The notes under the pieces are model-generated. The model made no database searches and was not told the DNA's origin. It saw nothing but the letters and a program-made list of their open reading frames with translations. Positions 5,336-51,632 of a stretch of 62,096 nt of DNA are shown piece by piece. The stretch's first letter is position 1. Every line of letters starts with the position of its first letter. The translations under genes and the position numbers were made by a program. This DNA is from Candidatus Nomurabacteria bacterium RIFCSPLOWO2_12_FULL_40_42 (GTDB lineage: Bacteria; Patescibacteriota; Minisyncoccia; Phycocordibacterales; UBA9973). The DNA is taken from assembly GCA_001786195.1 (NCBI GenBank), contig MFVS01000017.1, positions 1-62,096 of the forward strand. The letters run 5' to 3'.

Positions 5336-5371
5336 ATACCATAATAGCAACGGCCGTTGCTATTATGGTAT
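5336..5371. repeat. 36-nt perfect palindrome (family E), bidirectional-terminator-like
   Basis: ATACCATAATAGCAACGG|CCGTTGCTATTATGGTAT. It lies between convergent genes ending at 5273 (+) and 5450 (-), with an A-tract before and a T-tract after. Confidence 0.8.
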
Positions 5372-9468: not shown

Positions 9469-10206
9469 ATGGAAAGCGAAAATCAGCAGAGTTATACTAT
9501 AAAAACAGTCGGTTTTGAAGGTCCGTTTAGGTTACTTTTAGAATTGATAGAAAAACGCAAACTTTTTATCAATGATGTAACGCTTGCGACCGTGACGGAG
9601 GACTACCTCCAGTATATGAATAAATTGGGCGGCTCTGGTTCGATTGCACCGGCGGAAATTGCTAGTTTCGTGGTAGTGGCTTCAACTCTGATTTTAATCA
9701 AATCGAAATCACTTCTGCCAAATCTGGACCTGACCAGAGAAGAAGAAGGGGATATAAAAAGTCTGGAAGAACGGTTGCGACTTTATGAACTTTTTACAAA
9801 ATTGGGAAGCAATATAAAAAATATGTTCGGGGAAAAAATAGTTTTTGCGCCGCTCGAGCGAAAGAGCAATGTCCTGGTATTTTTGCCAGATGAGCAAATT
9901 ACCAAAAGTAGCATGATGGGTTTCGCTCGCGAAGTGTTGGACGCGATGCCTAAGAAAATATTTCTGCCTGAAGTGGAAGTACAAAAAGTTATCAGCATCG
10001 AAGAAATGATAGACCGACTTACTGAACGAATAAAAAGTTCAATTAAAATGAGCTTCAAAGATTTGCATGGGAAAATAGTTACTCGCGAAGAGAAAGTAAC
10101 CGCGATCGTAGGATTTTTGGCATTACTAGAACTTGTCCGACAGGGGATTGTGGATGCTGCGCAAGAGATTGATAAAGGGGATATTATTATTAGTAAAGAG
10201 ATATGA
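9469..10206 (+). CDS. scpA: segregation and condensation protein A
   Basis: 245 aa. FEGPFRLLLELIEKRKLFINDVTLATVTEDYL is typical of ScpA. Followed by an overlapping scpB. Confidence 0.9.
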   Translation: MESENQQSYTIKTVGFEGPFRLLLELIEKRKLFINDVTLATVTEDYLQYMNKLGGSGSIAPAEIASFVVVASTLILIKSKSLLPNLDLTREEEGDIKSLEERLRLYELFTKLGSNIKNMFGEKIVFAPLERKSNVLVFLPDEQITKSSMMGFAREVLDAMPKKIFLPEVEVQKVISIEEMIDRLTERIKSSIKMSFKDLHGKIVTREEKVTAIVGFLALLELVRQGIVDAAQEIDKGDIIISKEI

Positions 10207-10748
10207 ATTTAGAATCAAAAATCGAAGCTATCTTGTTTTGGAAAGGGGAGCCGATGTCTCGCAAGCGCCTGGCGGAAGTCTTAAAAGTGGGCGAGGCGGA
10301 AATAAACGAAGCCGTAGAAAAATTAAAAGAAAATTTAAAAGAGAGAGGAATTGTATTGCTGGAAAAAGAAAAGGAAGTTATGCTTGGCACAGCACCGGAG
10401 TTGTCTGATCTGATTGAAAATTTACAAAAAGAAGAGTTGAATAAAGATCTTTCCAAGGCGAGTCTGGAGACGCTCTCGATCGTGCTGTATAAAAATGGAG
10501 TGAGCCGGGCGGAGATTGATTATATAAGGGGAGTGAATTCGAGTTTTACTTTGCGAGCGCTGTCTATCCGAGGGCTAGTAGAAAAAATCACCGACCCCAA
10601 AGACGCTCGGCGCTACATTTATCGCCCGAGTTTTGAACTTCTCTCCTATATGGGCATCAAATCTATAGAAGAATTGCCAGACTTTGTCGAAGTTAGTAAC
10701 TCTATTAATATTGCCGCGAAAAGTTTAGAGGAAAAGACCTCTCCCTAG
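10203..10748 (+). CDS. scpB: segregation and condensation protein B
   Basis: 181 aa. IEAILFWKGEPMSRKRLAEVL and a tandem wHTH pattern. The stop codon lies inside repeat element A1. Confidence 0.9.
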   Translation: MNLESKIEAILFWKGEPMSRKRLAEVLKVGEAEINEAVEKLKENLKERGIVLLEKEKEVMLGTAPELSDLIENLQKEELNKDLSKASLETLSIVLYKNGVSRAEIDYIRGVNSSFTLRALSIRGLVEKITDPKDARRYIYRPSFELLSYMGIKSIEELPDFVEVSNSINIAAKSLEEKTSP

Positions 10749-10793
10749 CCCTCTCTTTGCCAAGGAGAGGGGAAAGAAAGGGGTGAGGTGAAT
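10736..10793 (+). repeat. GC-rich palindromic element, family A, copy A1 (short form)
   Basis: GACCTCTCCCTAGCCCTCTC..GAGAGGGG..GGGGTGAGGTGAA. Hairpin CCCTCTC (10749-55) / GAGAGGG (10765-71). The 5' end aligns with A2 and A3. Confidence 0.7.
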
Positions 10794-12071: not shown

Positions 12072-12569
12072 ATGACAGATGTTCCATATGAAGATAAACT
12101 TGGTAGAGTTTATGAATATGGAGAGATGTTGCCGGCAGAGATGTCTCCATGGGCGTACAATGAATCAACAGCATATGAATGGATTCCGGTAACGAAGGAT
12201 GAAGCAATTAAAAAGGGTTTAAATTGGCGTGATCCGGATTTGCGTAAATACAAAGATGCGACCATGGAAGTTCCAAAACATATCAAAGACGTGAAAGATG
12301 ATATTTTAAAGGCTATTTTGAAATGCATAAATTGCGGAAAAAATTATCAAATTATCCAAAAAGAATTAACTTTTTTACGTCGCTTTAATTTACCAATTCC
12401 AGATCATTGTCCGCTATGCCGAGACAGAGCTCGTATAAAGCAACTGAATCCGATGATGATTTACAATAGATCATGTGTGAAATGTGGTAAAGATATAGAA
12501 ACGTCGTATGCCTCAAATCGCCCGGAGATAGTTTATTGCGAAAAATGTTATCAGCAGGAAGTATATTGA
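12072..12569 (+). CDS. Cys-rich zinc-ribbon protein, C-terminal 1/3 of the split paralogue
   Basis: +1 frame relative to 10871-12013. GEMLPAEMSPWAYNES aligns to GNFFPKELSPFGYNEA. Same terminal CxxC..CPLCR..CxxC..CEKCYQQ pattern. Confidence 0.65.
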   Translation: MTDVPYEDKLGRVYEYGEMLPAEMSPWAYNESTAYEWIPVTKDEAIKKGLNWRDPDLRKYKDATMEVPKHIKDVKDDILKAILKCINCGKNYQIIQKELTFLRRFNLPIPDHCPLCRDRARIKQLNPMMIYNRSCVKCGKDIETSYASNRPEIVYCEKCYQQEVY

Positions 12570-12570
12570 G

Positions 12571-12606
12571 ATAGCGTAATAGAAGCGGCCGCGTCCATTA
12601 TGCTAT
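12571..12606. repeat. palindrome family E, degenerate copy
   Basis: ATAGCGTAATAGAAGCGG|CCGCGTCCATTATGCTAT, between convergent genes ending at 12569 (+) and 12630 (-). Confidence 0.6.
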
Positions 12607-12629: not shown

Positions 12630-13472
12630 TTAAAGGCAGTCCGGATTAATGCCCAGTACGTAATTATTAATTAAATTTAATTGCGAGGAATATTCATCTC
12701 CCAAAAATCCTTTGATGTCTTCATCTTTGATTAGTCTTTTATATTCCTCCGTGAAATTTTGGGAAAGCGGAAGGTAAGACCAGTGCCATTTTTCTTCGTT
12801 GTAGCCAGTTGGTCTTTCTTGGCCTTTTATGGTGTAAGTTTGACAGAAACCAAAACTTGGCGCATTGGTTACGAGCCATTCATATACTTTTTTTCCGTTC
12901 GTAGTTTCAAAATAAGCAGAATTTGCGTTATTTATATCTATATCAGTGCCCCAGTGATGCCTGGATATGCCAGGGGCAGCGCTATATTCTAATATTTTTT
13001 TAAATCTCTCTTGTCCATCTGGAATGCTTTTCGATAAATCTTTTCCTTCCACAATTGTGAATCCTGTCCATTTTTTCTCCCATAGGTCTTTTTGATAATC
13101 AAAATTTCTGGTCGCGGAAGCTATCTGTAAATCAATTTTATCCCCATTAGCTGCTTCTGCCATTTTTAGAAAAGCACTCAAGGTTTCTTGTCTTAAATAC
13201 ATTTTGTTTTGATTCATTTGTTCGATTAGATATTGAGGTGGTATCAGAACAAAATCTTTTCTTTGCGCCGGATCAAATTTACCAGTTAGATAAATTTTTT
13301 GTTTAGCTTCTGCTTTTAGACGCTGTTCCAGTAAAAATTTCTGATACTTCGCTTCGTTTTCTTTTTCTTGCCGCAAGTCCAAAAAAGATGAAGTGAAATA
13401 GGGCATAAAAACAATAAACACGAGAGAGAATAAGGCAAGGCACAATATAATTGTGGAAATATGTTTATTCAT
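12630..13472 (-). CDS. M15-family (VanY/LdcB-like) D-Ala-D-Ala/LD-carboxypeptidase, membrane anchored
   Basis: N-terminal TM helix. SRHHWGTDIDI and EEKWHWSY are metal-ligand motifs of LAS/M15 peptidases. Confidence 0.75.
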   Translation of the reverse strand: MNKHISTIILCLALFSLVFIVFMPYFTSSFLDLRQEKENEAKYQKFLLEQRLKAEAKQKIYLTGKFDPAQRKDFVLIPPQYLIEQMNQNKMYLRQETLSAFLKMAEAANGDKIDLQIASATRNFDYQKDLWEKKWTGFTIVEGKDLSKSIPDGQERFKKILEYSAAPGISRHHWGTDIDINNANSAYFETTNGKKVYEWLVTNAPSFGFCQTYTIKGQERPTGYNEEKWHWSYLPLSQNFTEEYKRLIKDEDIKGFLGDEYSSQLNLINNYVLGINPDCL

Positions 13473-13549
13473 CCCGTACGAAATTATTTAAAATTAATAA
13501 ATTGATTTATCCATATACGAGACTTTCTTAGAAGGATTTCGTACGGGAT
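13471..13549. repeat. inverted-repeat element, family D, copy D1
   Basis: 14-bp perfect TIR ATCCCGTACGAAAT (13471-84) / ATTTCGTACGGGAT (13536-49). The left end supplies the AT of the M15 peptidase ATG (13472-13470). Confidence 0.75.
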
Positions 13550-13592
13550 TCACTCGAAAACAATAACATATTGGTGTATTTTAATCAAAAAA

Positions 13593-20936: not shown

Positions 20937-20974
20937 ATTACCATAATAGACACGGCCGTTGCTATTATGGTAAT
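20937..20974. repeat. palindrome family E copy
   Basis: ATTACCATAATAGACACGG|CCGTTGCTATTATGGTAAT, between convergent genes ending at 20913 (+) and 21003 (-). Confidence 0.75.
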
Positions 20975-21002: not shown

Positions 21003-21278
21003 TTAGCTGTGCATTGCAACATTCTTTGGCGTACTGGTTTTTTCAGTGTCGGCTATGGAATTATAAAATTCCTGCTCCGCTTCTTCTAGATTATAATCGT
21101 TTTCTACTGGAATAACCTCGGGGGCATATTTTATTTTTTTAATTTCCTCTGTTATTTTCGACACATCCTCTTTGGTCGCCCAAGTCGTCTTACCTCTCTT
21201 CTCAAAAAATCTGCTCAAAAATAAATTCAACAGTAATCCGACAATCGTGCCAATAAGAAATGTGTTTAAGAAATCCAT
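21003..21278 (-). CDS. small membrane-anchored protein (91 aa)
   Basis: N-terminal TM (FLIGTIVGLLLNLFL). The ATG abuts repeat D2. Confidence 0.5.
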   Translation of the reverse strand: MDFLNTFLIGTIVGLLLNLFLSRFFEKRGKTTWATKEDVSKITEEIKKIKYAPEVIPVENDYNLEEAEQEFYNSIADTEKTSTPKNVAMHS

Positions 21279-21357
21279 CCCGTACGAAATAATATTAAAC
21301 TAATAAATTTGACCATACTCATATATTAAACTATTTTAGCAAAATTTCGTACGGGAT
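21277..21357. repeat. inverted-repeat element, family D, copy D2
   Basis: ATCCCGTACGAAAT (21277-90) / ATTTCGTACGGGAT (21344-57). The interior aligns with D1 (..TAATAAATT..). The left end supplies the AT of ATG 21278. Confidence 0.75.
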
Positions 21358-21361
21358 CCAT

Positions 21362-21805
21362 TTAAATTTTTTCTATAATGAGTTTAAACGAGGACTTTTT
21401 GCCCTTAATGGAAATAGGGATTTCAAACCCCCCTACTTGCTTGATTGGTTTCTCGAGGATAATAAATTCCTCGCCAATATCGGCATGATTTTGCGCCTTC
21501 ATGGCCTCGATAATTTCTTTTTTGTGGACTTGGGCGAAGAGATGCCCTTTTTCGTCAGCTTTTTCCTTGATGGTGATGACTTTGCCTTTGATGGCCTCCA
21601 AATTTTTAAGTAGCAAGCTCTCTTGCACCTCCCTTTCGATGGCAATTTCTTTTTGGCGCAGTTCGAGTTCGGTTATCGCTTTCGGCGTGGCTACTACTGC
21701 TAGTTTTCTCGGCAGCAAAAAATTTACCGCATAGCCGTCATTAACCTCCTTGGTGTCATTTTTTCTGCCCACTCTTGGCACATCTCGTAAAAAAATTACT
21801 TTCAT
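21362..21805 (-). CDS. rplI: 50S ribosomal protein L9
   Basis: MKVIFLRDVPRVGRKNDTKEVNDGYAVNFLLPRKLA, canonical bL9 N-domain. 147 aa. Confidence 0.9.
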   Translation of the reverse strand: MKVIFLRDVPRVGRKNDTKEVNDGYAVNFLLPRKLAVVATPKAITELELRQKEIAIEREVQESLLLKNLEAIKGKVITIKEKADEKGHLFAQVHKKEIIEAMKAQNHADIGEEFIILEKPIKQVGGFEIPISIKGKKSSFKLIIEKI

Positions 21806-35070: not shown

Positions 35071-35072
35071 AT

Positions 35073-35106
35073 AGTGACAACTTCTGCGGCCGCATAAGTT
35101 GTCACT
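35073..35106. repeat. palindrome family F, copy F1 (NotI-centred)
   Basis: AGTGACAACTT-cTGCGGCCGCAt-AAGTTGTCACT, with 11-bp perfect arms. Lies between the divergent purB and wHTH-Cas2-fold promoters. Confidence 0.8.
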
Positions 35107-35133: not shown

Positions 35134-35631
35134 ATGAGTATTCCAGATTACATGTTTCGTCGGCTTACATATAAAGGTATGAGTGTTGATATGTTCGGTC
35201 TGCCGGAATTTCGTAATTATAAGATAAATTCTTTAAATGTTGCTTTCTCTAGATTAAAAAAGAAACATTACGTAACCTTCACTGGTTCAAGTTGGAAATT
35301 AACTAAAAATGGAGAAAAGTATTTTAAAAAAAGAAGTGCTCGCTTGCCTATCTTTAACTCAACCTTGGAAAAAGGATCTTCAAAAAATCTACTTTTAATA
35401 TTTGATATTCCTGAAGCCCGTAAAGCAGAAAGAGAATGGCTTCGTTTCCATTTAAAAAAATTCAATTATACTATGATTCAACAAAGCGCCTGGGTAGGTC
35501 CTTCTCCCCTGCCTCAAGAATTTTTAGATTATCTTAAAAACATAAAACTGAGAGATTGCATTAAGACATTCAAACTAGCAAGATCTTATCCTTGGAGCAG
35601 TAATGAACAGCGTAAGAAGGGACAAGGGTGA
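35134..35631 (+). CDS. PaaX-like protein: winged-helix N-domain plus Cas2-fold domain
   Basis: LLLIFDIPEARKAEREWLRFHLKKFNYTMIQQSAWVGP matches the Cas2/PaaX-middle-domain pattern (xxFDIP..kR..lr..L...gf..lq.SvW). Start moved from GTG 35119. Confidence 0.65.
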   Translation: MSIPDYMFRRLTYKGMSVDMFGLPEFRNYKINSLNVAFSRLKKKHYVTFTGSSWKLTKNGEKYFKKRSARLPIFNSTLEKGSSKNLLLIFDIPEARKAEREWLRFHLKKFNYTMIQQSAWVGPSPLPQEFLDYLKNIKLRDCIKTFKLARSYPWSSNEQRKKGQG

Positions 35632-35660
35632 CAAACTCTGCGGCCGCAGAATGTGTCACT
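35627..35660. repeat. palindrome family F, copy F2
   Basis: GGTGACAAACTCTGCGGCCGCAGAATGTGTCACT. Contains the TGA stop of the Cas2-fold gene and abuts the purC stop. Confidence 0.75.
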
Positions 35661-42821: not shown

Positions 42822-42857
42822 ATACCACAATAACCACGGCCGCTGCTATTATGATAC
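42822..42857. repeat. palindrome family E, degenerate copy
   Basis: ATACCACAATAACCACGG|CCGCTGCTATTATGATAC, between convergent purA (ends 42802) and purN-purD (ends 42860). Confidence 0.65.
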
Positions 42858-42859
42858 CT

Positions 42860-44761
42860 TCATAATTCAAATGCTTTTTTACCTATATCCCTCCTGTACT
42901 GCATTTCCTCAAACGAAATCCTTTCTATGGCCTTGTAGGCCTTTTGGAGGGCCACTTCCAGGGTTTTACCTATAGCAGAGACTCCCAACACCCGCCCGCC
43001 ATTGGTGACTAATTTATCATCTTTTATAGTGGTTCCGGCGTGAAAGATGACGATGTCACCACCCCCTCCCCCCTCCTCAAGGAGGATGGGGTTCCCCTTC
43101 TCATAATTCCCCGGATACCCGCCAGAAGAGAGTACAATGTTACAGGCGAAAATATGTTCCTTCCATTTAATTTCCTGGTCCTCAAGTTTCTTATCAATAC
43201 AAGCATCAACAATATCCAACAAATCGCTTTCCATTAGTCGCATATAGACTTGTGCCTCCGGATCGCCAAAGCGCGCGTTGTATTCCAAAATTTTTGGTCC
43301 TTCCTTCGTTAGGATTAAACCAGGATAGAGTATTCCTTCAAATGGTGTTCCATCTTTTCGAATGCCTTCCAAAGTCGGCGCCACGATTTCTTTTTCTATT
43401 CTCTGCATGAGCTTTTCATCTACAAAAGGGAGTGGCGATATGGTGCCCACACCTCCGGTATTCGCCCCCGTGTCCCCTTCGCCGATTTTTTTATGGTCTT
43501 GCGATGGCGGGAAAATTTTATAACTTTTGCCGTCGGAAAAAGCATGAATCGAAATTTCAGGACCGGTCAAAAATTCTTCAATAACTATCTCGTTACCCGA
43601 ATTTCCGAATGTCTTTTTGACCAACATATTCTCTAGCGCTTCATTTGCTTCTTCTAGGGTTTGGACAATTATTACCCCTTTGCCCAAGGCCAAGCCGCTA
43701 GCTTTGATCACAATCGGGAGAGATTTACTGGCTACATATTTTTTTGCTTTTTCAAATTCAGTAAATATCTCAAACTTGGCCGTCGGCAAGTTGTGTCGGC
43801 GCATGAAATCTTTTGAAAATGCCTTGGACCATTCCAGCTGTGCTGCCGCCTTGGTCGGCCCCCAGATCCGCAAACCAGCTTTCTTGAATTCGTCAACTAT
43901 ACCAAGCGCCAGCGGATCGTCCGAAAGTGCCAAAGTTAAATCAATTTTCTCTTTTTGCGCAAACTCTAAAAGTTTAGAAATTTCTGTTTCTTTAATATCT
44001 AAATTAGTTCCAAGCTGTGCCGTGCCGGCATTTCCTCGAGCAAAAAAAAGTTCTCCCACTCGAGGCGACTGCGCAATTTTCCAACTGATAGCATGTTCCC
44101 GTCCCCCACCCGCGCCAACTATTAAAATTTTTAAGACCTCATCCCCCGCCTTCCCCTGGAGGGGGAAGGAGCTCCCTCGCCTTTCAGGAGAGGGTTGGGG
44201 TGAGGTTAACTTTTCCAAAACTTCTACATACAACTCATTTTCTTTTTTCTTTAATCTCGCATACAAAGATTCAACTATGTCATTTGCTTCAATCTTTTCA
44301 AAAGTTCTTCCTAAAACCGATCCAAAGTCGAAATCTAAAGTTAAAAAATGAATACTAGAACTAGCATAAGTAGCTTTTTGGTCTAGAAAATTTTGGATGG
44401 CTTTACTGCCATACATTCCTTTATTCCAAAGCGCTATTGTGCCGTCTGGATTCTTTATGTTTCCATCAATTGTGTCTGGAATTAAGCCAGGATGTAAATT
44501 CAAGATTTTATTTGAATATTTTCTAATCAAATCATCCGGAATAATTTTATTCCAACCGCAAAGGCACAAATAATCTGGATTTATTTTTTCTATTATCGGC
44601 ATCGCGTTTTCTTTATCAGAAATCACTGTCGAAATTTCCGCATTTATCTTACCCATCTCGATTGCCTCCCTGATCGCCTTCAAATTGGTTTGAGTGCCTC
44701 CCTCATGCACCATGATCACTAATTTTATTTTTTCTGATTTTTTATTTGTTGGGGACATCAT
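42860..44761 (-). CDS. fusion protein: GAR formyltransferase-like (PurN) N-domain plus GAR synthetase (PurD)
   Basis: N-part: ILNLHPGLIP and formyltransferase fold order. C-part: KILIVGAGGREHAISWKI and ATP-grasp GARS. The domains are joined by repeat A2. Confidence 0.85.
   Translation of the reverse strand: MMSPTNKKSEKIKLVIMVHEGGTQTNLKAIREAIEMGKINAEISTVISDKENAMPIIEKINPDYLCLCGWNKIIPDDLIRKYSNKILNLHPGLIPDTIDGNIKNPDGTIALWNKGMYGSKAIQNFLDQKATYASSSIHFLTLDFDFGSVLGRTFEKIEANDIVESLYARLKKKENELYVEVLEKLTSPQPSPERRGSSFPLQGKAGDEVLKILIVGAGGGREHAISWKIAQSPRVGELFFARGNAGTAQLGTNLDIKETEISKLLEFAQKEKIDLTLALSDDPLALGIVDEFKKAGLRIWGPTKAAAQLEWSKAFSKDFMRRHNLPTAKFEIFTEFEKAKKYVASKSLPIVIKASGLALGKGVIIVQTLEEANEALENMLVKKTFGNSGNEIVIEEFLTGPEISIHAFSDGKSYKIFPPSQDHKKIGEGDTGANTGGVGTISPLPFVDEKLMQRIEKEIVAPTLEGIRKDGTPFEGILYPGLILTKEGPKILEYNARFGDPEAQVYMRLMESDLLDIVDACIDKKLEDQEIKWKEHIFACNIVLSSGGYPGNYEKGNPILLEEGGGGGDIVIFHAGTTIKDDKLVTNGGRVLGVSAIGKTLEVALQKAYKAIERISFEEMQYRRDIGKKAFEL
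44136..44206 (-). repeat. GC-rich palindromic element, family A, copy A2 (71 nt), forming the PurN-PurD linker
   Basis: Outer stem ACCTCATCCCC/GGGGTGAGGT. Inner hairpins CCTTCCCC..GGGGAAGG and CCCTC..GAGGG. Translated as LTSPQPSPERRGSSFPLQGKAGDEV. Confidence 0.75.
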
Positions 44762-46968: not shown

Positions 46969-46981
46969 GTTTCTTTTCTTT

Positions 46982-47015
46982 AGTGACAAATCTAGCGGCC
47001 GCATAATCTGTCACT
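46982..47015. repeat. palindrome family F, copy F3
   Basis: AGTGACAAATCTAGCGGCCGCATAATCTGTCACT, between the stop of the Cys-rich gene (47017) and the purQ ATG. Confidence 0.75.
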
Positions 47016-47016
47016 T

Positions 47017-48678
47017 TTAATAAATTTTTTGCTGGTAACATTTTTCACAGTAAATTTTATAATTTTTTTGGTCTTCTGGGGTGTAGGATGTAAGTATTTC
47101 TTTATCGCACTTAGCACAAATTCCCTTCCATAAATTACGAGGATTTCTTTTACTCATGCGTGCCTCGTGCCGGCAGTTGAAACACATGACAGGAATCGAC
47201 AATTTGTTTTTCCTATAAAAATTTATTTCTCTGTTTATGAGTTTATAATTTTTCTCGCACTTGGAGCAAGTCAAAATCTCCTCCAATAATTTATCGCTAT
47301 AATCTTCTGGATTTTTCAGCAAATCCTCGTATTTGATAGTCCCCTGCCCCTTAGTGCTCGGGATGTTGTCTTTCTTTTTGAAACCTTGCGCTAAAGCTTG
47401 TTCTTTGGAGAGCGGCATGTATTCATCTACTATCGCCTCGTTGTATCCAAATGGGCTTAATTCTTTTGGAAAAAAATTCCCCCATTCCCCGCTTTTTTTT
47501 AAATTTTCTATAATCTTCGGCACGATTTTCTGATATTTTTCTTTCAAATACTGCTTGTTGAGAATGCAGTAATTTTTCTTGCGCAGGCCATAGCAGCCGA
47601 AAATGTTATTGCAATTGTAACAATTATCTGAGTAATAGACATCATGCGAATCGACTATTTGATTGGACCCAATCACTTTATTACTATCAAGTACCGTCAA
47701 AACTTGATAACACTCGGACAAGTTTCCGGTAAAAGACACATCATACGAATCTATAGCTTCTCGGACGGTAAAACAAAATTTAGAATTCTCCCCGCTTTTA
47801 ACATCAAAAGAATGATGAATGTTATGGGAATTATAGATGTGGTTTCCCGACACATTATTATTATGCGAACCAAAAAAAGAACGCTGGGGAATCTTTTTGC
47901 GCAAAGATTCTCTTTCTTTTAAAATAAAATCAATATAACTTTTTTCATTCAAGGGGTGTTCTAATAAAAATTTCCTATATTCTTCTCTGGTCACGGGTTT
48001 ATTGAAGATGTAATAAGATTTACTTACCAGTCCCACACAGCCGATGCAATTCAAGCAATTTCGGCAGTCGAAAAGTCCGATAGAGTTCACACAGGCCTCG
48101 CATTCTTGTGAATAAAAAAGTTTACCGGAGTTCAGACAATCTATGCACTCATAACAAGATTCGCATTTGAATAAATACAAGTTGTCTATTGAGTCTCTGG
48201 AGTTCCAGACAATATGACCATAATCGCAATCTTCGTCGTTCAAGCCGCCGAAAATAAGATAACAATTTTTACTTTGATTGATTTGGTTCGAGTACTTGCA
48301 GTTCTCGGTTTGAGAATTCATTATGGAGACATGAGGGACGGTATTGAATAGCTCAATCAGCTGCGAAAAAAAAGGTTCATCCAAATCCACGTCTACTCCA
48401 TACGAAATAGCATCCCATTCATCACCCCACCATTCTGAAATGTCATAAACTGGGAAAGGCGCATCTGCATCATAAACTGATATAATCATTTTTCCCGATT
48501 TGCTCGATGGCCTTTTGTAAAGAGTCTTAAAATTTCTAAAAAGCGTGCGCAGTTGTTGCCGACACTCTGGACACTTGGATGGCGCTGGCACCCCCATCTT
48601 TTCATAAAACCCAAAGTCATTCGACTCGACAGAGAAATCTTTTCCACAGTTTTGACAAATTTTATTTTCTGTTTCCAT
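47017..48678 (-). CDS. Cys-rich multi-zinc-ribbon protein of unknown function (intact paralogue)
   Basis: 553 aa. N- and C-terminal CxxC-x3-F-x..FY.K...P.P..C..CR modules flank a core of CxxCxxC repeats. No family name recalled. Confidence 0.8.
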   Translation of the reverse strand: METENKICQNCGKDFSVESNDFGFYEKMGVPAPSKCPECRQQLRTLFRNFKTLYKRPSSKSGKMIISVYDADAPFPVYDISEWWGDEWDAISYGVDVDLDEPFFSQLIELFNTVPHVSIMNSQTENCKYSNQINQSKNCYLIFGGLNDEDCDYGHIVWNSRDSIDNLYLFKCESCYECIDCLNSGKLFYSQECEACVNSIGLFDCRNCLNCIGCVGLVSKSYYIFNKPVTREEYRKFLLEHPLNEKSYIDFILKERESLRKKIPQRSFFGSHNNNVSGNHIYNSHNIHHSFDVKSGENSKFCFTVREAIDSYDVSFTGNLSECYQVLTVLDSNKVIGSNQIVDSHDVYYSDNCYNCNNIFGCYGLRKKNYCILNKQYLKEKYQKIVPKIIENLKKSGEWGNFFPKELSPFGYNEAIVDEYMPLSKEQALAQGFKKKDNIPSTKGQGTIKYEDLLKNPEDYSDKLLEEILTCSKCEKNYKLINREINFYRKNKLSIPVMCFNCRHEARMSKRNPRNLWKGICAKCDKEILTSYTPEDQKNYKIYCEKCYQQKIY

Positions 48679-48710: not shown

Positions 48711-51632
48711 TTAAATGTGTTTTCTCATTTTTTCTGAAAAACTATGATAAATTTTGTGTAATTTTTTAACATTGGTGTCTATTAATTTTAGACTACCGTC
48801 TGTAATGATAATTTTACCACTTTTCTCTACTTTTCCGAGTTTAGTAAAAGAGATTCCTTTCATTATTTTTTCAAATTGTTTGATGTTTTTTGGAGCTACA
48901 GATACTAAAATCCGACCCTGGCTTTCAGAGAAAAGTTTGGCGTCTACAGATAGCGCTTTAGGCGCTATCTGGGTGGAAATATTACATCCGAGCATACCGC
49001 CTACGCAGGCTTTAGCCACTGCAATTGCGAGCCCGCCACTTGTTACTGAAATTGACGAGGCCACTAATTCTTTTTGGATTGTTTTTTCCAAAGCCAAGTA
49101 AGTTTTCAGATTTTTTTCTAAATTCACTTTTGGCACACCCTGCTCATCATTTGTTTCGCCTAATAAATAAATTATATCGCCATCTTTTTTAAACTCTGGA
49201 GAAACGGTTTTATACAAGTTTGGCATGACGCCAATCGCGGAGATAAGCAAGGTCGGCGGGATGGAAATAGAGACTGGATTTCCTTTTTCGTCATAGCCTT
49301 TGAAGTCGTTGAACATACTGTCCTTGCCGGAGATGAAGGGTGTGCCATACGCCACTGCGCTGTCGTAACAGGCTTTTACGGTCTCTACAAGCTGTCCTAA
49401 CCGCCTTGGGTCATCGGATGAGCACCAGCAGAAGTTGTCCAAAATAGCCAGGTGAGAGAGCGTGCCGCCTGCGGCCACGATATTGCGGATAGCGGTGTCG
49501 AGCGCACAAGCGGCCATGTGATAAGTGCTAATGTCGCCATAGAAAGGATAGGTAGCCGAGGACAGTACCACTCCTTTATTAGAATTTAAAACTGGGCGGA
49601 AAACTTGCGCATCGGTATTGATGCGGCCAGGGCCGGAGAGAGGTTTCAAAACCGAAGAAGCTTGGACTTCGTGATCATACTGCTCCGAGATAAAAGAAAA
49701 TCCAGAAATATTTTTATCGGCAAGGAGATTTTCTAGAATTCCATTCAACCCACCCCTTCCCCCTCCCGAAGGGAGGGGATTCTCCCTCCCCTTTGGGGAG
49801 GGCTGGGGAGAGGTGAACAGCTGCTGCTTCGGCAGTCCATCATGCAAGAATTCCATATCTAAATCCATAACTTTTTTATTCCCATACTCAACCACTATTT
49901 TTCCGGAATTTGTGAATTCCCCTATCACCGTCGCTTCTACTCCCCGGCTCTCCATCAATTTTTGAAATGTTTTCCATTTCTGCTTTGGCACGGCGAGGGT
50001 CATGCGTTCCTGTGATTCAGAAATCCAAATCTCCCAAGGCTGCAGGCCGGGATATTTGAGTGGAACTTTTTCTAAAGAAATTTTTGCGCCACCCTGCCTA
50101 CCGGCAGGCAGGCACACTTCTTTAGCCATCTCTGCCACCGAGCAAGAAATTCCGCCGGCGCCATTGTCGGTGATGCTGTTATATAAATTTTTGTCGCGCG
50201 CTTCTTTGACTATTGCGTCGCTTAATTTTTTCTGGGTGATCGGGTCGCCTATTTGCACTGCCGCCGCCGGAGAATTTGAATCAAGGGTTACGGAAGAAAA
50301 AGTCGCGCCATGAATGCCGTCAAGGCCCACTCGGCCACCTACTATGACTATATAGTCGCCCGCCCGTGCTTTTTTTTCGTACGAACGTCTAATTCCGCCT
50401 GAGGCGGGCAAGTTTCTCGGAATTAAGCCGACGGTGCCGGCAAAAACCAACGGCTTGCCGCGATAGCGATCGTCAAATTTTATAAATCCGGAAAGCGTCG
50501 GGATTCCGGAGCAATTGCCGCCCACATTGATACCTTTGATTACTCCTTGCATTATTCGCACAGGTAATAACATTTCATTTTTTAAATCTTTGTTCCGGAA
50601 AAGCGGTTTGGTTTCATTTGGATTGCCGAAACAAAAGCCATAAGTGTTGGCGACTGGCTTGGCGCCGAGTCCAAAGCCAATCGTGTCGCGATTGACGCCG
50701 ACTATACCGGTGATCGCTCCGCCGAAAGGATCTAAGGCCGAAGGGCTGTTGTGCGTCTCGACTTTATGGATTATTAAATAGTTTTCATCAAAAATTATTC
50801 CGCCGGCGTTGTCTGAAAAAACCGAAACGCAGAAATCCCCGCCTTTGGATGGGGCAAGCCTTCCCTTTTTCTGTTTTTTTGCTCTTATTAAATTCGTGGC
50901 TCCTTTGATGTAAGTTTTATATAGACCATCCTTAATATCATCTATCGGATTGGCAAAAATAGTGTGCTTGCAATGCTCCGACCAGGTCTGGGCCAGAGAT
51001 TCCAATTCGATATCAGTCGGATCTCTTTTTAATTTTCTAAAATGCTCCGCAATAGTTTGCATCGAAGGCAAATCTAACGCCAGCGGCCCTCTGCGCTTCT
51101 GCTCTTTGCCATTATCTAATATTCCCTCTTTGCCTATCTTAATTAATTCTTCTTCACTTACTTCCAGATCTACGTTGATAACCGGTTTTCTTTTTTTAAG
51201 TACTACTTTTGGAATTTCAGCTTTCAAATGTATTTTTTTATTCTTTACTGGCACAATTTTAGCTCTTTCAATCAACGGATTATACAAAGTCAAGGCGATT
51301 TTTTGAGCGTGTTCTTTCGTGCCGGAAACAAAAAAAATCTTCGAGGTATAGACCGCGAAGTTGTCAGACTTTTTCAGATGTAATAAATCAGATGCAATTT
51401 CTTTGACCGTGTGACCAACATTGTCTGTCACGCCGGGTAGAAATCCTATTTCAATAGCGTAACTAAAATCTTTTATATTGCTTAACTTATCAATACAGAA
51501 GCTTTCCAGAATAGGATTAGTCAGTGCTTGAGCTAGTTGTTCAATCTTATGTCTCGACAATTTAGAGTCAATAAGATAAGAATCTGCCCTCGAACTTACT
51601 TTCTTAGGGCTCACATATATTCGCGAAATCAT
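48711..51632 (-). CDS. purL: FGAM synthase II (PurL) with ~160-aa PurS-like N-terminal extension
   Basis: WSEHCKHTIF, DNAGG, ETHNSPSA, GATFSS motifs. The N-terminus (..FLPGVTDNVGHTVKEI..) resembles the N-domain of large PurL. No separate purS seen. Confidence 0.9.
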   Translation of the reverse strand: MISRIYVSPKKVSSRADSYLIDSKLSRHKIEQLAQALTNPILESFCIDKLSNIKDFSYAIEIGFLPGVTDNVGHTVKEIASDLLHLKKSDNFAVYTSKIFFVSGTKEHAQKIALTLYNPLIERAKIVPVKNKKIHLKAEIPKVVLKKRKPVINVDLEVSEEELIKIGKEGILDNGKEQKRRGPLALDLPSMQTIAEHFRKLKRDPTDIELESLAQTWSEHCKHTIFANPIDDIKDGLYKTYIKGATNLIRAKKQKKGRLAPSKGGDFCVSVFSDNAGGIIFDENYLIIHKVETHNSPSALDPFGGAITGIVGVNRDTIGFGLGAKPVANTYGFCFGNPNETKPLFRNKDLKNEMLLPVRIMQGVIKGINVGGNCSGIPTLSGFIKFDDRYRGKPLVFAGTVGLIPRNLPASGGIRRSYEKKARAGDYIVIVGGRVGLDGIHGATFSSVTLDSNSPAAAVQIGDPITQKKLSDAIVKEARDKNLYNSITDNGAGGISCSVAEMAKEVCLPAGRQGGAKISLEKVPLKYPGLQPWEIWISESQERMTLAVPKQKWKTFQKLMESRGVEATVIGEFTNSGKIVVEYGNKKVMDLDMEFLHDGLPKQQLFTSPQPSPKGRENPLPSGGGRGGLNGILENLLADKNISGFSFISEQYDHEVQASSVLKPLSGPGRINTDAQVFRPVLNSNKGVVLSSATYPFYGDISTYHMAACALDTAIRNIVAAGGTLSHLAILDNFCWCSSDDPRRLGQLVETVKACYDSAVAYGTPFISGKDSMFNDFKGYDEKGNPVSISIPPTLLISAIGVMPNLYKTVSPEFKKDGDIIYLLGETNDEQGVPKVNLEKNLKTYLALEKTIQKELVASSISVTSGGLAIAVAKACVGGMLGCNISTQIAPKALSVDAKLFSESQGRILVSVAPKNIKQFEKIMKGISFTKLGKVEKSGKIIITDGSLKLIDTNVKKLHKIYHSFSEKMRKHI
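49751..49815 (-). repeat. GC-rich palindromic element, family A, copy A3, in-frame inside purL
   Basis: Hairpins CCCTCCC-GAA-GGGAGGG and CCCTCCCC-TTT-GGGGAGGG. Translated as FTSPQPSPKGRENPLPSGGGRGG. Confidence 0.75.
50093..50112. repeat. mini-palindrome family B (CCTGCCT..AGGCAGG) inside purL
   Basis: CCTGCCTACCGGCAGGCAGG. Translated on the minus strand as LPAGRQG. Confidence 0.65.

What the first reader, a model, noticed from the sequence alone, without database searches (positions are those of the whole stretch)
44136..44206. A 71-nt GC-rich palindromic repeat is the interdomain linker of the PurN-PurD fusion
The element has an outer stem ACCTCATCCCC/GGGGTGAGGT and inner hairpins CCTTCCCC..GGGGAAGG and CCCTC..GAGGG. 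It lies exactly between the end of the formyltransferase domain (..LYVEVLEKL) and the canonical GARS start (KILIVGAGGREHA). It is read through as LTSPQPSPERRGSSFPLQGKAGDEV. Related copies occur in purL (49751-49815) and at the scpB stop (10736-10793), all in the same reading frame. The simplest scenario is that a repeat landed in, or replaced, the purN-purD intergenic spacer. Being stop-free in this frame, it converted two adjacent genes into one fusion. This would be an unusual route to gene fusion and an RPE-like phenomenon outside Rickettsia.
Basis: partly seen in the sequence, partly recalled or inferred. Interest (0 to 1): 0.7.

Follow-up and report, generated by a model that had tools for sequence, protein, structure and literature searches.

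The report
BoxC-type repeat as PurN–PurD linker
A 71-base palindromic repeat, a known type found in many bacteria (BoxC/"triplex motif" repeats), is translated as the floppy linker joining two purine-synthesis enzymes in a tiny candidate-phylum bacterium; it may have fused the two genes, and the repeat family turns out to cluster around one small nuclease gene.

Summary
Window 44136-44206 is a 71-nt imperfect palindrome lying in frame in a 633-aa PurN–PurD ORF. It is translated as a 24-residue linker that is predicted to be disordered.

The element is not a lineage-specific novelty. It is a head-to-head pair of BoxC/PIT/"TM" units, the G/C-rich intrastrand-triplex repeats of Holder et al. 2015. 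These repeats occur in many phyla and were described in E. coli as strictly intergenic.

In Nomurabacteria relatives, purN and purD are usually separate, overlapping genes. Three repeat variants occur at this junction, always in fused genes and never in 30 separate-gene loci. However, fusions also exist with short linkers that carry no repeat. Trees are unresolved and the alleles are mosaic. "The repeat made the fusion" is therefore plausible (about 0.5) but unproven.

The same repeats sit in frame in the interdomain linkers of guaA and purL and in a purD loop. They replace short native segments and leave no target-site duplication.

New lead: across phyla, repeat units tightly flank DUF559 nuclease genes, including E. 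coli ycjD. This resembles the REP–RAYT arrangement, and I found no paper describing it.

The parts
44136..44206 (-). 71-nt head-to-head pair of BoxC/TM units. It is translated on the - strand as residues 186-209 (TSPQPSPERRGSSFPLQGKAGDEV) of the PurN–PurD protein.
   Evidence: The model has pLDDT below 50 for residues 188-208. The element is identical in six independent assemblies.
44136..44169 (-). Left unit. On the + strand: pyrimidine third strand ACCTCATCCCCC (44136-44147), then hairpin arms CCTTCCCC (44149-44156) and GGGGAAGG (44162-44169).
   Evidence: Motif positions. Best fit to the triplex rule uses 10-nt arms: 8/10 Watson-Crick pairs and 8/10 purine-motif triads; 0 of 300 shuffles reach this.
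44174..44206 (+). Right unit: hairpin arms CCCTCGCC (44174-44181) and GGAGAGGG (44187-44194), then G-rich third strand GGGGTGAGGT (44197-44206).
   Evidence: Best fit uses 10-nt arms: 8/10 pairs and 9/10 triads; 0 of 300 shuffles reach this. It is 92% identical over 36-38 nt to E. coli repeat copies at the 3' end of ycjD.
42860..44761 (-). Fused purN–purD ORF, 633 aa. The PurN part is 44207-44761 and the PurD part is 42860-44135.
   Evidence: Two folded domains, mean pLDDT 84.7. There is no in-frame ATG/GTG/TTG between the element and the conserved GAGGGREHA motif, read directly from the sequence.
49749..49815 (-). Second repeat pair, in frame in purL (ORF 48711..51632), read as TSPQPSPKGRENPLPSGGGRGG. 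It replaces most of a variable loop of about 20 residues.
10737..10789 (+). Third repeat pair, straddling the end of scpB (ORF 10203..10748). It supplies the last three codons (TSP) and the TAG stop. The rest is intergenic.
43058..43091 (-). Single repeat-type unit in frame in the PurD C-domain (..NPILLEEGGGGGD..). Relatives carry other repeat variants at the same site.
   Evidence: 9/10 pairs and 10/10 triads. pLDDT dips in that stretch.

Best explanation
**What it is (shown).** The element is a pair of two inverted BoxC/PIT/TM units. Each unit is a C-rich/G-rich hairpin plus a mirror-repeat third strand. The third strands lie on the outside and act like terminal inverted repeats (ACCTCAYCCC...GGGGTGAGGT). 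The pair lies in frame and is translated into a Pro/Ser/Gly/charged linker that is predicted to be disordered. It joins a folded PurN domain to a folded PurD domain. PurD has no start codon of its own.

**How it got there (inferred).** I propose the same process that put family members into the interdomain linkers of guaA and purL and into a purD loop in related genomes. That process acquires a repeat copy and at the same time replaces a short native segment, without a target-site duplication. At purN/purD, the replaced segment of about 20 nt held the overlapping purN stop and purD start. The acquisition itself would therefore have joined the two reading frames. Only in-frame, stop-free outcomes can survive, because any other outcome loses PurD.

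**Source of copies (inferred).** The likely source is a nuclease-linked repeat system, in which repeat units flank DUF559 genes. The pair in the window looks like a nuclease-less derivative of such a cassette.
For: **Family identity.**
- The unit architecture and triplex rule are met.
- One unit is 92% identical to E. coli repeat copies.
- The published pattern is CCCTCNCCC N3-6 GGGNGAGGG N3 GGGNGAGGG (PMC4666352).

**Linker.** pLDDT is below 50 for residues 188-208, between well-modelled domains.

**Usual state in relatives.** Separate, overlapping genes, for example L001..LTKNV* / MSEEKLKILIIG with an 8-nt overlap. One search lists 31 such loci.

**Association with fusion.**
- 14 repeat-bearing junction alleles are all fused. 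None of 30 separate-gene junctions has a repeat.
- There are three structural variants (71, 47 and 58 nt). The number of bases between the element's end and the ATT codon of the conserved ILI motif is 7 or 8, and this compensates the frame. That suggests more than one event under selection for reading frame.

**Footprint elsewhere.**
- In guaA, filled and empty sites differ by the repeat plus replacement of about 12 nt, with no duplication.
- In purL, the repeat replaces the native loop.

**Mobility.**
- The 71-nt variant is 69/71 identical to the purL copy of L004, whose genes are only about 75% identical in protein to those of the window.
- The two 47-nt copies in L004 are nearly the same as each other.

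**Background of the window's lineage.** L001, L134, L139 and L164 share the window's 553-aa ORF and all have separate genes. L004 and L128, which carry the repeat at the junction, have an unrelated ORF there.

**Cassettes.** L069, L022 and L039 show repeat – DUF559 – repeat with the same outer termini.
Against: - Fusions without any repeat exist in the same family. One of them (P0020) is sister to a repeat-bearing allele (P0016) at 92% bootstrap.
- In guaA and purL the repeat landed in linkers that already existed. By analogy, it could have landed in an existing PurN–PurD linker.
- Trees of the PurD part, and of the 230 residues around the junction, do not resolve the order of events.
- Alleles are mosaic. 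P0002 equals P0005 over residues 1-300 and the window protein over residues 301-633. The apparent recurrence may therefore reflect recombination.
- No close relative showing the immediate pre-insertion state was found. The nearest are about 75-82% identical in flanking genes.
- No DUF559 gene is in the window.
Confidence: 0.5

Rival explanations
1. Fusion first, repeat second. purN and purD had already fused through a small deletion or frameshift in their overlap. The repeat pair later landed in the tolerant linker, as it did in guaA and purL.
For: - Repeat-free fusions with 3-7-residue linkers occur in several clades. L132 is a read-through of the old spacer that still contains the old ATG.
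- P0016 (with repeat) and P0020 (fused, no repeat) are sisters at 92% bootstrap.
- Repeat insertions in guaA and purL lie in pre-existing interdomain linkers.
Against: - Relatives sharing the window's 553-aa ORF all have separate genes.
- On the PurD tree, several repeat-bearing alleles group with separate-gene relatives. P0005 with P0048 and P0059 has 100% support. P0004, P0013 and P0024 with P0075 and P0076 have 84%. Mosaicism weakens this argument.
- No separate-gene locus has a repeat in the junction, although other hairpins do sit there.
Confidence: 0.35
2. Imported allele. The window's lineage received an already fused, repeat-bearing junction by homologous recombination from another Nomurabacteria lineage. 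This is compatible with either origin of the fusion.
For: - Mosaic alleles exist: P0002, and the pair P0007/P0013.
- The identical 20-residue repeat peptide TSPPAPLLVKERVAEGRVRY occurs in P0005 and P0017, which lie in different PurD clades. It also occurs in the mosaic P0002.
Against: - There is no clear patch of raised identity around the junction between the window and L004/P0003.
- The window's 71-nt variant was not seen at this junction in any other lineage sampled.
- Some mosaics may be chimeric assemblies.
Confidence: 0.2
3. Not a mobile repeat but a locally evolved hairpin or linker. Selection would act on an RNA- or translation-level role, for example pausing between domains or stabilising the mRNA.
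For: - The RNA fold is stable.
- The peptide has a composition suited to a linker.
Against: - Near-identical copies occur at unrelated loci and in other genomes.
- The same 20-mer is found across many phyla.
- Presence or absence varies at otherwise conserved sites.
- No Rfam family matches.
Confidence: 0.03
4. Assembly or gene-calling artefact that joins two genes.
For: The element is repetitive and G+C-rich, the kind of sequence that can mis-assemble.
Against: The identical 1902-nt gene with the exact element occurs in six contigs from independent JGI, ENA and Logan samples. The reading frame is continuous, with conserved domains on both sides.
Confidence: 0.01

Closest known systems
[quoted passage not shown] 2015, PMC4666352; the earlier BoxC and PIT work is cited there)
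   Same: - Same unit architecture: C-rich arm, loop, G-rich arm, short loop, mirror G-rich third strand.
- One unit is 92% identical to E. coli copies.
- Palindromic pairs occur.
- Copies are dispersed and variable between relatives.
- No transposase is known.
   Different: - In E. coli the motif is reported as always intergenic. Here the copies are mostly in frame inside conserved genes and are translated.
- The host is a Patescibacteria genome with 40% G+C.
- Here the element is associated with a gene fusion.
Rickettsia palindromic elements (RPE). The comparison rests on my own knowledge; the MITE review PMC10969869 was listed by the searches but not read.
   Same: Palindromic repeats inserted in frame into protein-coding genes and translated as extra peptide segments that the host protein tolerates.
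   Different: - RPEs are longer (about 100-150 bp) and form Rickettsia-specific sequence families. No sequence relationship was tested here.
- The repeats here are 31-71 nt and belong to a cross-phylum family.
REP/REPIN repeats with their RAYT transposase
   Same: Short palindromic repeats, often as inverted pairs, many copies per genome, with a small nuclease-type gene flanked by the repeats.
   Different: - The flanked gene here is DUF559 (called 'very-short-patch-repair endonuclease' or 'endonuclease domain' by the sources), not a RAYT.
- REPs are extragenic.
- No activity of DUF559 on these repeats has been shown.
[quoted passage not shown]
   Same: Short, no coding capacity of its own, inverted termini, several internal variants that share the same ends, occasional in-frame insertion.
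   Different: - No target-site duplication.
- Insertion is accompanied by replacement of native sequence.
- No transposase partner is known.
Other multi-enzyme purine-pathway fusions, such as the eukaryotic GARS-AIRS-GART protein (my own knowledge)
   Same: PurN and PurD activities on one polypeptide.
   Different: - The domain order here is PurN then PurD, without PurM.
- The fusion is sporadic among close relatives.
- The linker is repeat-derived.

Membership tests
BoxC/PIT/TM (TMECO) repeats | C-rich arm, 3-6-nt loop and complementary G-rich arm forming a hairpin | tested here: met
   Both units of the 71-nt element have 8/10 Watson-Crick pairs. Six of the seven window units tested have 8-9 of 9-10 pairs; for the right-hand scpB unit the scoring script chose a shifted solution with 4/9 pairs. 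0 of 300 shuffles reach the combined score for any unit.
BoxC/PIT/TM (TMECO) repeats | A second G-rich tract that mirrors the first, able to form G*G:C, A*A:T and T*A:T triads | tested here: met
   9/10 and 8/10 triads in the two units. The published TMECO no. 2, scored the same way, gives 9/9.
BoxC/PIT/TM (TMECO) repeats | Sequence pattern CCCTCNCCC N3-6 GGGNGAGGG N3 GGGNGAGGG | tested here: inconclusive
   The right unit, CCCTCGCCT TTCA (A)GGAGAGGG TTG GGGTGAGGT, fits with about one mismatch per block, by my reading. blastn gives 92% identity over 36-38 nt to E. coli copies at ycjD. That position corresponds, by my inference from coordinates and gene order, to TMECO no. 9 of the paper's Table 1. 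It is a close relative rather than an exact pattern match.
BoxC/PIT/TM (TMECO) repeats | Intergenic location (reported as 'always' in E. coli K-12) | tested here: not met
   Three of the four window sites are inside ORFs and one straddles a stop codon. This is a descriptive property of the E. coli copies, not a structural criterion. Even the E. coli ycjD copy overlaps the annotated CDS end.
BoxC/PIT/TM (TMECO) repeats | Forms an intrastrand triplex as single-stranded DNA in vitro | not testable with these tools
   Needs CD, NMR or melting experiments, as in PMC4666352.
Rickettsia palindromic elements | Palindromic repeat inserted in frame in ORFs and translated | tested here: met
Rickettsia palindromic elements | Sequence membership in an RPE family | not tested
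   No RPE sequences were compared. Length and host differ, so I treat this as an analogy only.
MITE | Terminal inverted repeats | tested here: met
   ACCTCAYCCC...GGGGTGAGGT ends are shared by the 47-, 58- and 71-nt variants.
MITE | Target-site duplication | tested here: not met
   The guaA filled and empty sites show no duplication and about 12 nt of native sequence replaced. The same holds at purL.
MITE | A longer, protein-coding relative with the same ends | tested here: inconclusive
   Repeat – DUF559 – repeat cassettes have the same outer termini in L069 (perfect 33-nt repeats), L022 and L039. DUF559 is not a known transposase, and unit orientation varies at other loci.
REP/REPIN–RAYT | Repeats flank a RAYT gene | tested here: not met
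   The flanked gene is DUF559.
PurN–PurD fusion protein | Formyl_trans_N plus GARS_N/A/C domains on one uninterrupted ORF, with catalytic residues conserved | tested here: met
   Pfam hits. N88 and H90 are invariant and D145 nearly invariant in the 25-sequence alignment. Both domains are confidently modelled.

The most novel reading that the evidence does not exclude
BoxC/PIT/TM repeats would be the cis elements of a selfish system built around the small DUF559 endonuclease (E. coli YcjD and its homologues in many phyla). This would be analogous to REP/REPIN with RAYT. Nuclease-less repeat pairs would spread or be copied into new sites. In the compact genomes of Patescibacteria they would persist mainly as in-frame, translated inserts in interdomain linkers, where they can also weld adjacent overlapping genes into fusions such as PurN–PurD.
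Probability: 0.35. Interest if true: 0.85.

Novelty: new variant of a known kind. Interest (0 to 1): 0.6.

Why it matters
BoxC/PIT/TM repeats have been known since the 1990s, but their function and means of spread are unknown. Holder et al. 2015 report no promoter, terminator or mobility gene near them.

This locus shows three things:
- These repeats can live inside essential genes as translated linkers.
- They recur at the same permissive sites in different variants.
- They are perfectly associated with one route to a gene fusion.

The tight flanking of DUF559 genes by repeat units, from E. coli to Patescibacteria, turns the question of origin into experiments. One test is whether YcjD/DUF559 binds or cuts repeat DNA. 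Another is whether repeat copy number tracks DUF559 presence across genomes.

There is also a practical point for annotation. Repeat-encoded peptides (TSPQPSP...GEV) in conserved enzymes are real and should not be treated as errors.

Tried and rejected
- **Rfam.** Nothing at gathering threshold in the whole window except one tRNA. With the permissive threshold on 44000-44350, only sub-threshold generic hairpin hits appeared.
- **First repeat-unit finder.** My first regular expression was too strict and missed known copies. It was replaced.
- **Dating the fusion with trees.** Neighbour-joining trees with bootstrap were built on the PurD part and on the 230 junction-proximal residues. Most deep nodes are unsupported, and mosaic alleles make the PurD tree unreliable for the junction. 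I do not claim a number of independent events.
- **P0002.** At first it looked like the window's closest relative with a different repeat variant. It is a mosaic or chimera and was discounted.
- **Target-site duplication or fixed target sequence.** None was found. A possible microhomology between native ACYTCN (Thr-Ser) codons and the ACCTCA end of the element is anecdotal.
- **Error.** The purD query coordinates were out of frame, so that column is empty. The other columns stand.
- **Internal start for PurD.** There is none in frame before the conserved glycine-rich motif. The ATG inside GGGGATGAGG is out of frame and stops after four codons (read).
- **Literature.** Searches for palindromic elements in Patescibacteria, for DUF559/ycjD and for BoxC found only Holder 2015 as relevant.
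Full report
**1. The observation**

As RNA it folds into an outer stem enclosing two hairpins (-42.4 kcal/mol, z = -2.7). It is a G+C island in a window with 40% G+C.

It lies inside a single 633-aa ORF on the - strand (42860..44761). Pfam places Formyl_trans_N at residues 57-182 and GARS_N/A/C at 211-629. The element starts at the first base of codon 186 and is read as TSPQPSPERRGSSFPLQGKAGDEV.

An AlphaFold model built on 25 homologues has mean pLDDT 84.7. It shows two well-modelled domains, with residues 188-208 below pLDDT 50 and without secondary structure.

After the element there is no in-frame start codon before the conserved GAGGGREHA motif (read). PurD can therefore be made only as part of the fusion.

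The exact gene, including the exact element, is present in six contigs from independent samples. It is not an assembly artefact.

**2. Related copies in the window**

- **purL copy.** A second pair of units at about 49749-49815 lies in purL on the same strand and in the same frame (FTSPQPSPKGRENPLPSGGGRGG).
- **scpB copy.** A third pair at 10737-10789 straddles the end of scpB, which is a + strand gene. It supplies the last three codons (TSP) and a TAG stop in the position where other copies have CAG or CAA.
- **purD copy.** A fourth, single unit lies in frame in the PurD C-domain at 43058-43091.
- **Chance.** GGGG[AT]GAGGT occurs three times in the window, each time at an element end.

**3. 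What the element is**

Matches came from Bacteroidota, Alphaproteobacteria, Nostoc, Melainabacteria, Saccharibacteria, Gracilibacteria, Armatimonadota, Chloroflexota, Pseudomonas and others. Nearly all show the same module: ACCTCACCCC-AR-CCCTCTCC-loop-GGAGAGGG.

A full-text search for these strings led to Holder et al. 2015 (PMC4666352). This is the BoxC / PIT / "TM" (TMECO) repeat, with the pattern CCCTCNCCC N3-6 GGGNGAGGG N3 GGGNGAGGG. The paper reports the following:
- It forms an intrastrand triplex in vitro.
- In E. coli K-12 it is "always located intergenically".
- It has no promoter or terminator activity and no associated mobility genes.
- It is linked to local sequence instability.

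The window's right unit (CCCTCGCC TTTCA GGAGAGGG TT GGGGTGAGGT) fits this architecture. Scored for Watson-Crick pairs and purine-motif triads, every window unit exceeds all 300 shuffles, as does a published TMECO copy. blastn finds 92% identity over 36-38 nt to E. coli copies.

The 71-nt element is therefore two inverted units with their third strands outermost.

**4. The junction in relatives**

The organism groups with Candidatus Nomurabacteria (source names). Among homologues, most PurD proteins are separate, at about 428 aa.

In the relative L001, purN and purD overlap by 8 nt (..ELTKNV* / MSEEKLKILIIG) and there is no repeat.

A survey of 80 metagenome loci plus protein hits gave the following:
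- **Separate genes.** 31 loci are listed as separate; 30 of them could be scored. They overlap or have a very short spacer. None has a repeat at the junction.
- **Repeat-bearing alleles.** 14 were found, and all are fused. They come in three variants that share the left boundary (..AAATTR|ACCTCACCCC):
  - 71 nt, in the window only;
  - 47 nt, with one hairpin (L004/L126, L128 and others);
  - 58 nt (L127, L141; peptide TSPPAPLLVKERVAEGRVRY).
- **Frame compensation.** The right flank is 7 or 8 nt long, which compensates for element length and keeps the reading frame.
- **Fusions without the repeat.** 14 fused alleles lack it. Some have short linkers (for example EKLTGNKQKILIIG). One is a read-through of the former spacer that still shows the old ATG (L132). 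Two read through a different, AT-rich palindrome that is intergenic in L133 and L137.

Fusion has therefore arisen by several routes, and the repeat is one of them.

**5. Order of events**

Bootstrapped neighbour-joining on the PurD part places repeat-bearing alleles in several supported clades together with separate-gene relatives. P0005 with P0048 and P0059 has 100% support; a 12-member clade with six repeat-bearing alleles has 100%. P0016 (repeat) is sister to P0020 (fused, no repeat) at 92%.

However, the alleles are mosaic. P0002 is identical to P0005 over residues 1-300 and to the window protein over residues 301-633. P0007 and P0013 are similar only in the C-terminal half. A tree of the 230 junction-proximal residues is unresolved.

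By flanking genes, the window is 75-82% identical to its nearest sampled relatives. Those that share its 553-aa ORF next to purL (L001, L134, L139, L164) all have separate genes. The junction-repeat genomes L004 and L128 have an unrelated ORF there.

I conclude that separate genes are the ancestral state. The window's fusion is derived within a background of separate genes. Whether the repeat arrived with the fusion or after it cannot be settled with the genomes available.

**6. How these repeats enter genes**

In about 1 Mb of related loci, all but 4 of 39 detected elements (some in redundant loci) lie inside long ORFs.

- **guaA.** L004/L126 and L134 carry a 47-nt copy in the linker between the glutamine amidotransferase domain and the ATP-pyrophosphatase domain. 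The window and eight other loci have the empty site. Filled and empty sites differ by the repeat plus replacement of about 12 nt of Lys-rich sequence, with no duplication.
- **purL.** Different variants occupy the same variable loop in five lineages and replace most of the native loop.
- **PurD C-domain loop.** It shows several variants.
- **Same variant, different site.** The window's 71-nt junction element is 69/71 identical to the purL copy of L004, although the host proteins are only about 75% identical. L004's junction and guaA copies are nearly the same as each other.

Copies are therefore exchanged or newly copied faster than the genes diverge.

At the purN/purD overlap, the same footprint (insertion plus loss of about 10-20 adjacent bases) would remove the stop and the start. 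This is why I rank fusion by insertion first, at about 0.5.

In other phyla, 19 of 75 hits in low-G+C loci also lie well inside open spans of at least 200 aa. Ten of these spans were scanned against Pfam and all proved to be real proteins: LeuRS (two), IF-2, TGT, phosphoglucomutase, a DNA methylase, a radical SAM enzyme, an M24 peptidase, a FemAB-family protein and an alpha/beta hydrolase. In-frame copies are not confined to Nomurabacteria.

**7. A nuclease partner?**

The best E. coli matches lie at the 3' end of ycjD, a DUF559 gene. YcjD ends in the repeat-encoded tail ..LSPSPQPSP.

Two Bacteroidota LeuRS genes carry an in-frame DUF559 domain flanked by inverted repeat units.

An offline DUF559 profile found the domain in the following loci:
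- 10 of the 120 loci that had been selected by the repeat 20-mer;
- L180, a locus from the metagenome scan;
- L206, the E. coli ycjD locus fetched through the blastn hit;
- none in the window.

In 9 of these 12 loci a repeat unit lies within 25 nt of the domain. In L069 (Methylobacterium) the gene sits between perfect 33-nt inverted units with ACCTCACCCC outermost. These are the same termini as the window's pair.

Sampling in the reverse direction gave the same picture:
- Of 12 DUF559 genes picked by tblastn from the plasmid collection without regard to repeats, 10 have repeat-type units within 700 nt. That is 31 units, against 0.075 expected from block shuffles.
- In 30-kb regions around three of these genes, 12 of 18 units lie within 120 nt of the gene.
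- In three Patescibacteria DUF559 loci a unit abuts the start codon (..GGGCTAGGGTGGGGTGATG).

I found no paper linking DUF559 or ycjD to these repeats. Holder et al. state that they found no mobility functions near the motifs.

The association is shown. That DUF559 mobilises or generates the repeats is inference. Orientation rules are not uniform, and the reverse relation is also possible: repeats could be landing pads or expression signals for the gene.

**8. Verdict**

The element belongs to a known, widespread family, so it is not a new kind of element. What is new is its translated, in-frame life in the linkers of core enzymes in a candidate-phylum bacterium, its perfect association with one route to the PurN–PurD fusion, and the DUF559 link.

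Noticed in passing
window 43058-43091: A single BoxC/TM-type unit in frame in the PurD C-domain (..NPILLEEGGGGGD..). Relatives carry other variants at the same site, and model confidence dips there.
   Followed up: partly
window 5337-5370, 12567-12605, 20939-20972, 42822-42856: A different palindromic repeat family (TACCATAATAGCAACGGCCGTTGCTATTATGGTA). The last copy lies in the 57-nt gap between the convergent purA and purN–purD stop codons, where a two-way terminator would sit.
   Followed up: no
window 35072-35106, 35626-35660, 46981-47015: Another palindromic family with a GCGGCCGC centre (AGTGACAAC..GCGGCCGC..GTTGTCACT), found at gene ends.
   Followed up: no
window 13457-13552 and 21271-21371: Inverted repeats built on CCCGTACGAAAT, present at two loci about 7.8 kb apart.
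   Followed up: no
L022 1736-5173 (+), L039 984-4496 (-): Bacteroidota leucyl-tRNA synthetase genes with a DUF559 nuclease domain inserted in frame before the editing domain, flanked by inverted repeat units.
   Followed up: partly
L206 1504-1880 (E. coli 042, ycjD): The E. coli repeat copy overlaps the 3' end of the annotated ycjD CDS. YcjD ends in the repeat-encoded peptide SPSPQPSP, although these repeats are described as strictly intergenic.
   Followed up: partly
P0002, P0005, P0007, P0013 (proteins): Mosaic PurN–PurD proteins. P0002 equals P0005 over residues 1-300 and the window protein over residues 301-633. This is either recombination between lineages or chimeric assembly.
   Followed up: partly
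L133 and L137 junctions; proteins P0012, P0018: An AT-rich palindrome (TGTCAAACACCGAGTGTTTGACA) occupies the purN–purD spacer where the genes are separate, and is read through where they are fused. This is a second repeat type at the same hot spot.
   Followed up: no
window 47017-48678 (-): A 553-aa ORF between purQ and purL with no Pfam hit on record. L004 and L128 have an unrelated 582-aa ORF in the same place.
   Followed up: no
window 44590-44761 (PurN N-terminal part): The window's PurN domain lacks about 20 residues that relatives have (consensus ..GLERAxKHNLKIEICPxKExLLPLLQK..). The catalytic Asn, His and Asp are kept.
   Followed up: no
DUF559 homologues P0121-P0240: Many DUF559 proteins sit on contigs of only 0.5-1 kb, as expected if their flanks are repeats that break assemblies.
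   Followed up: no
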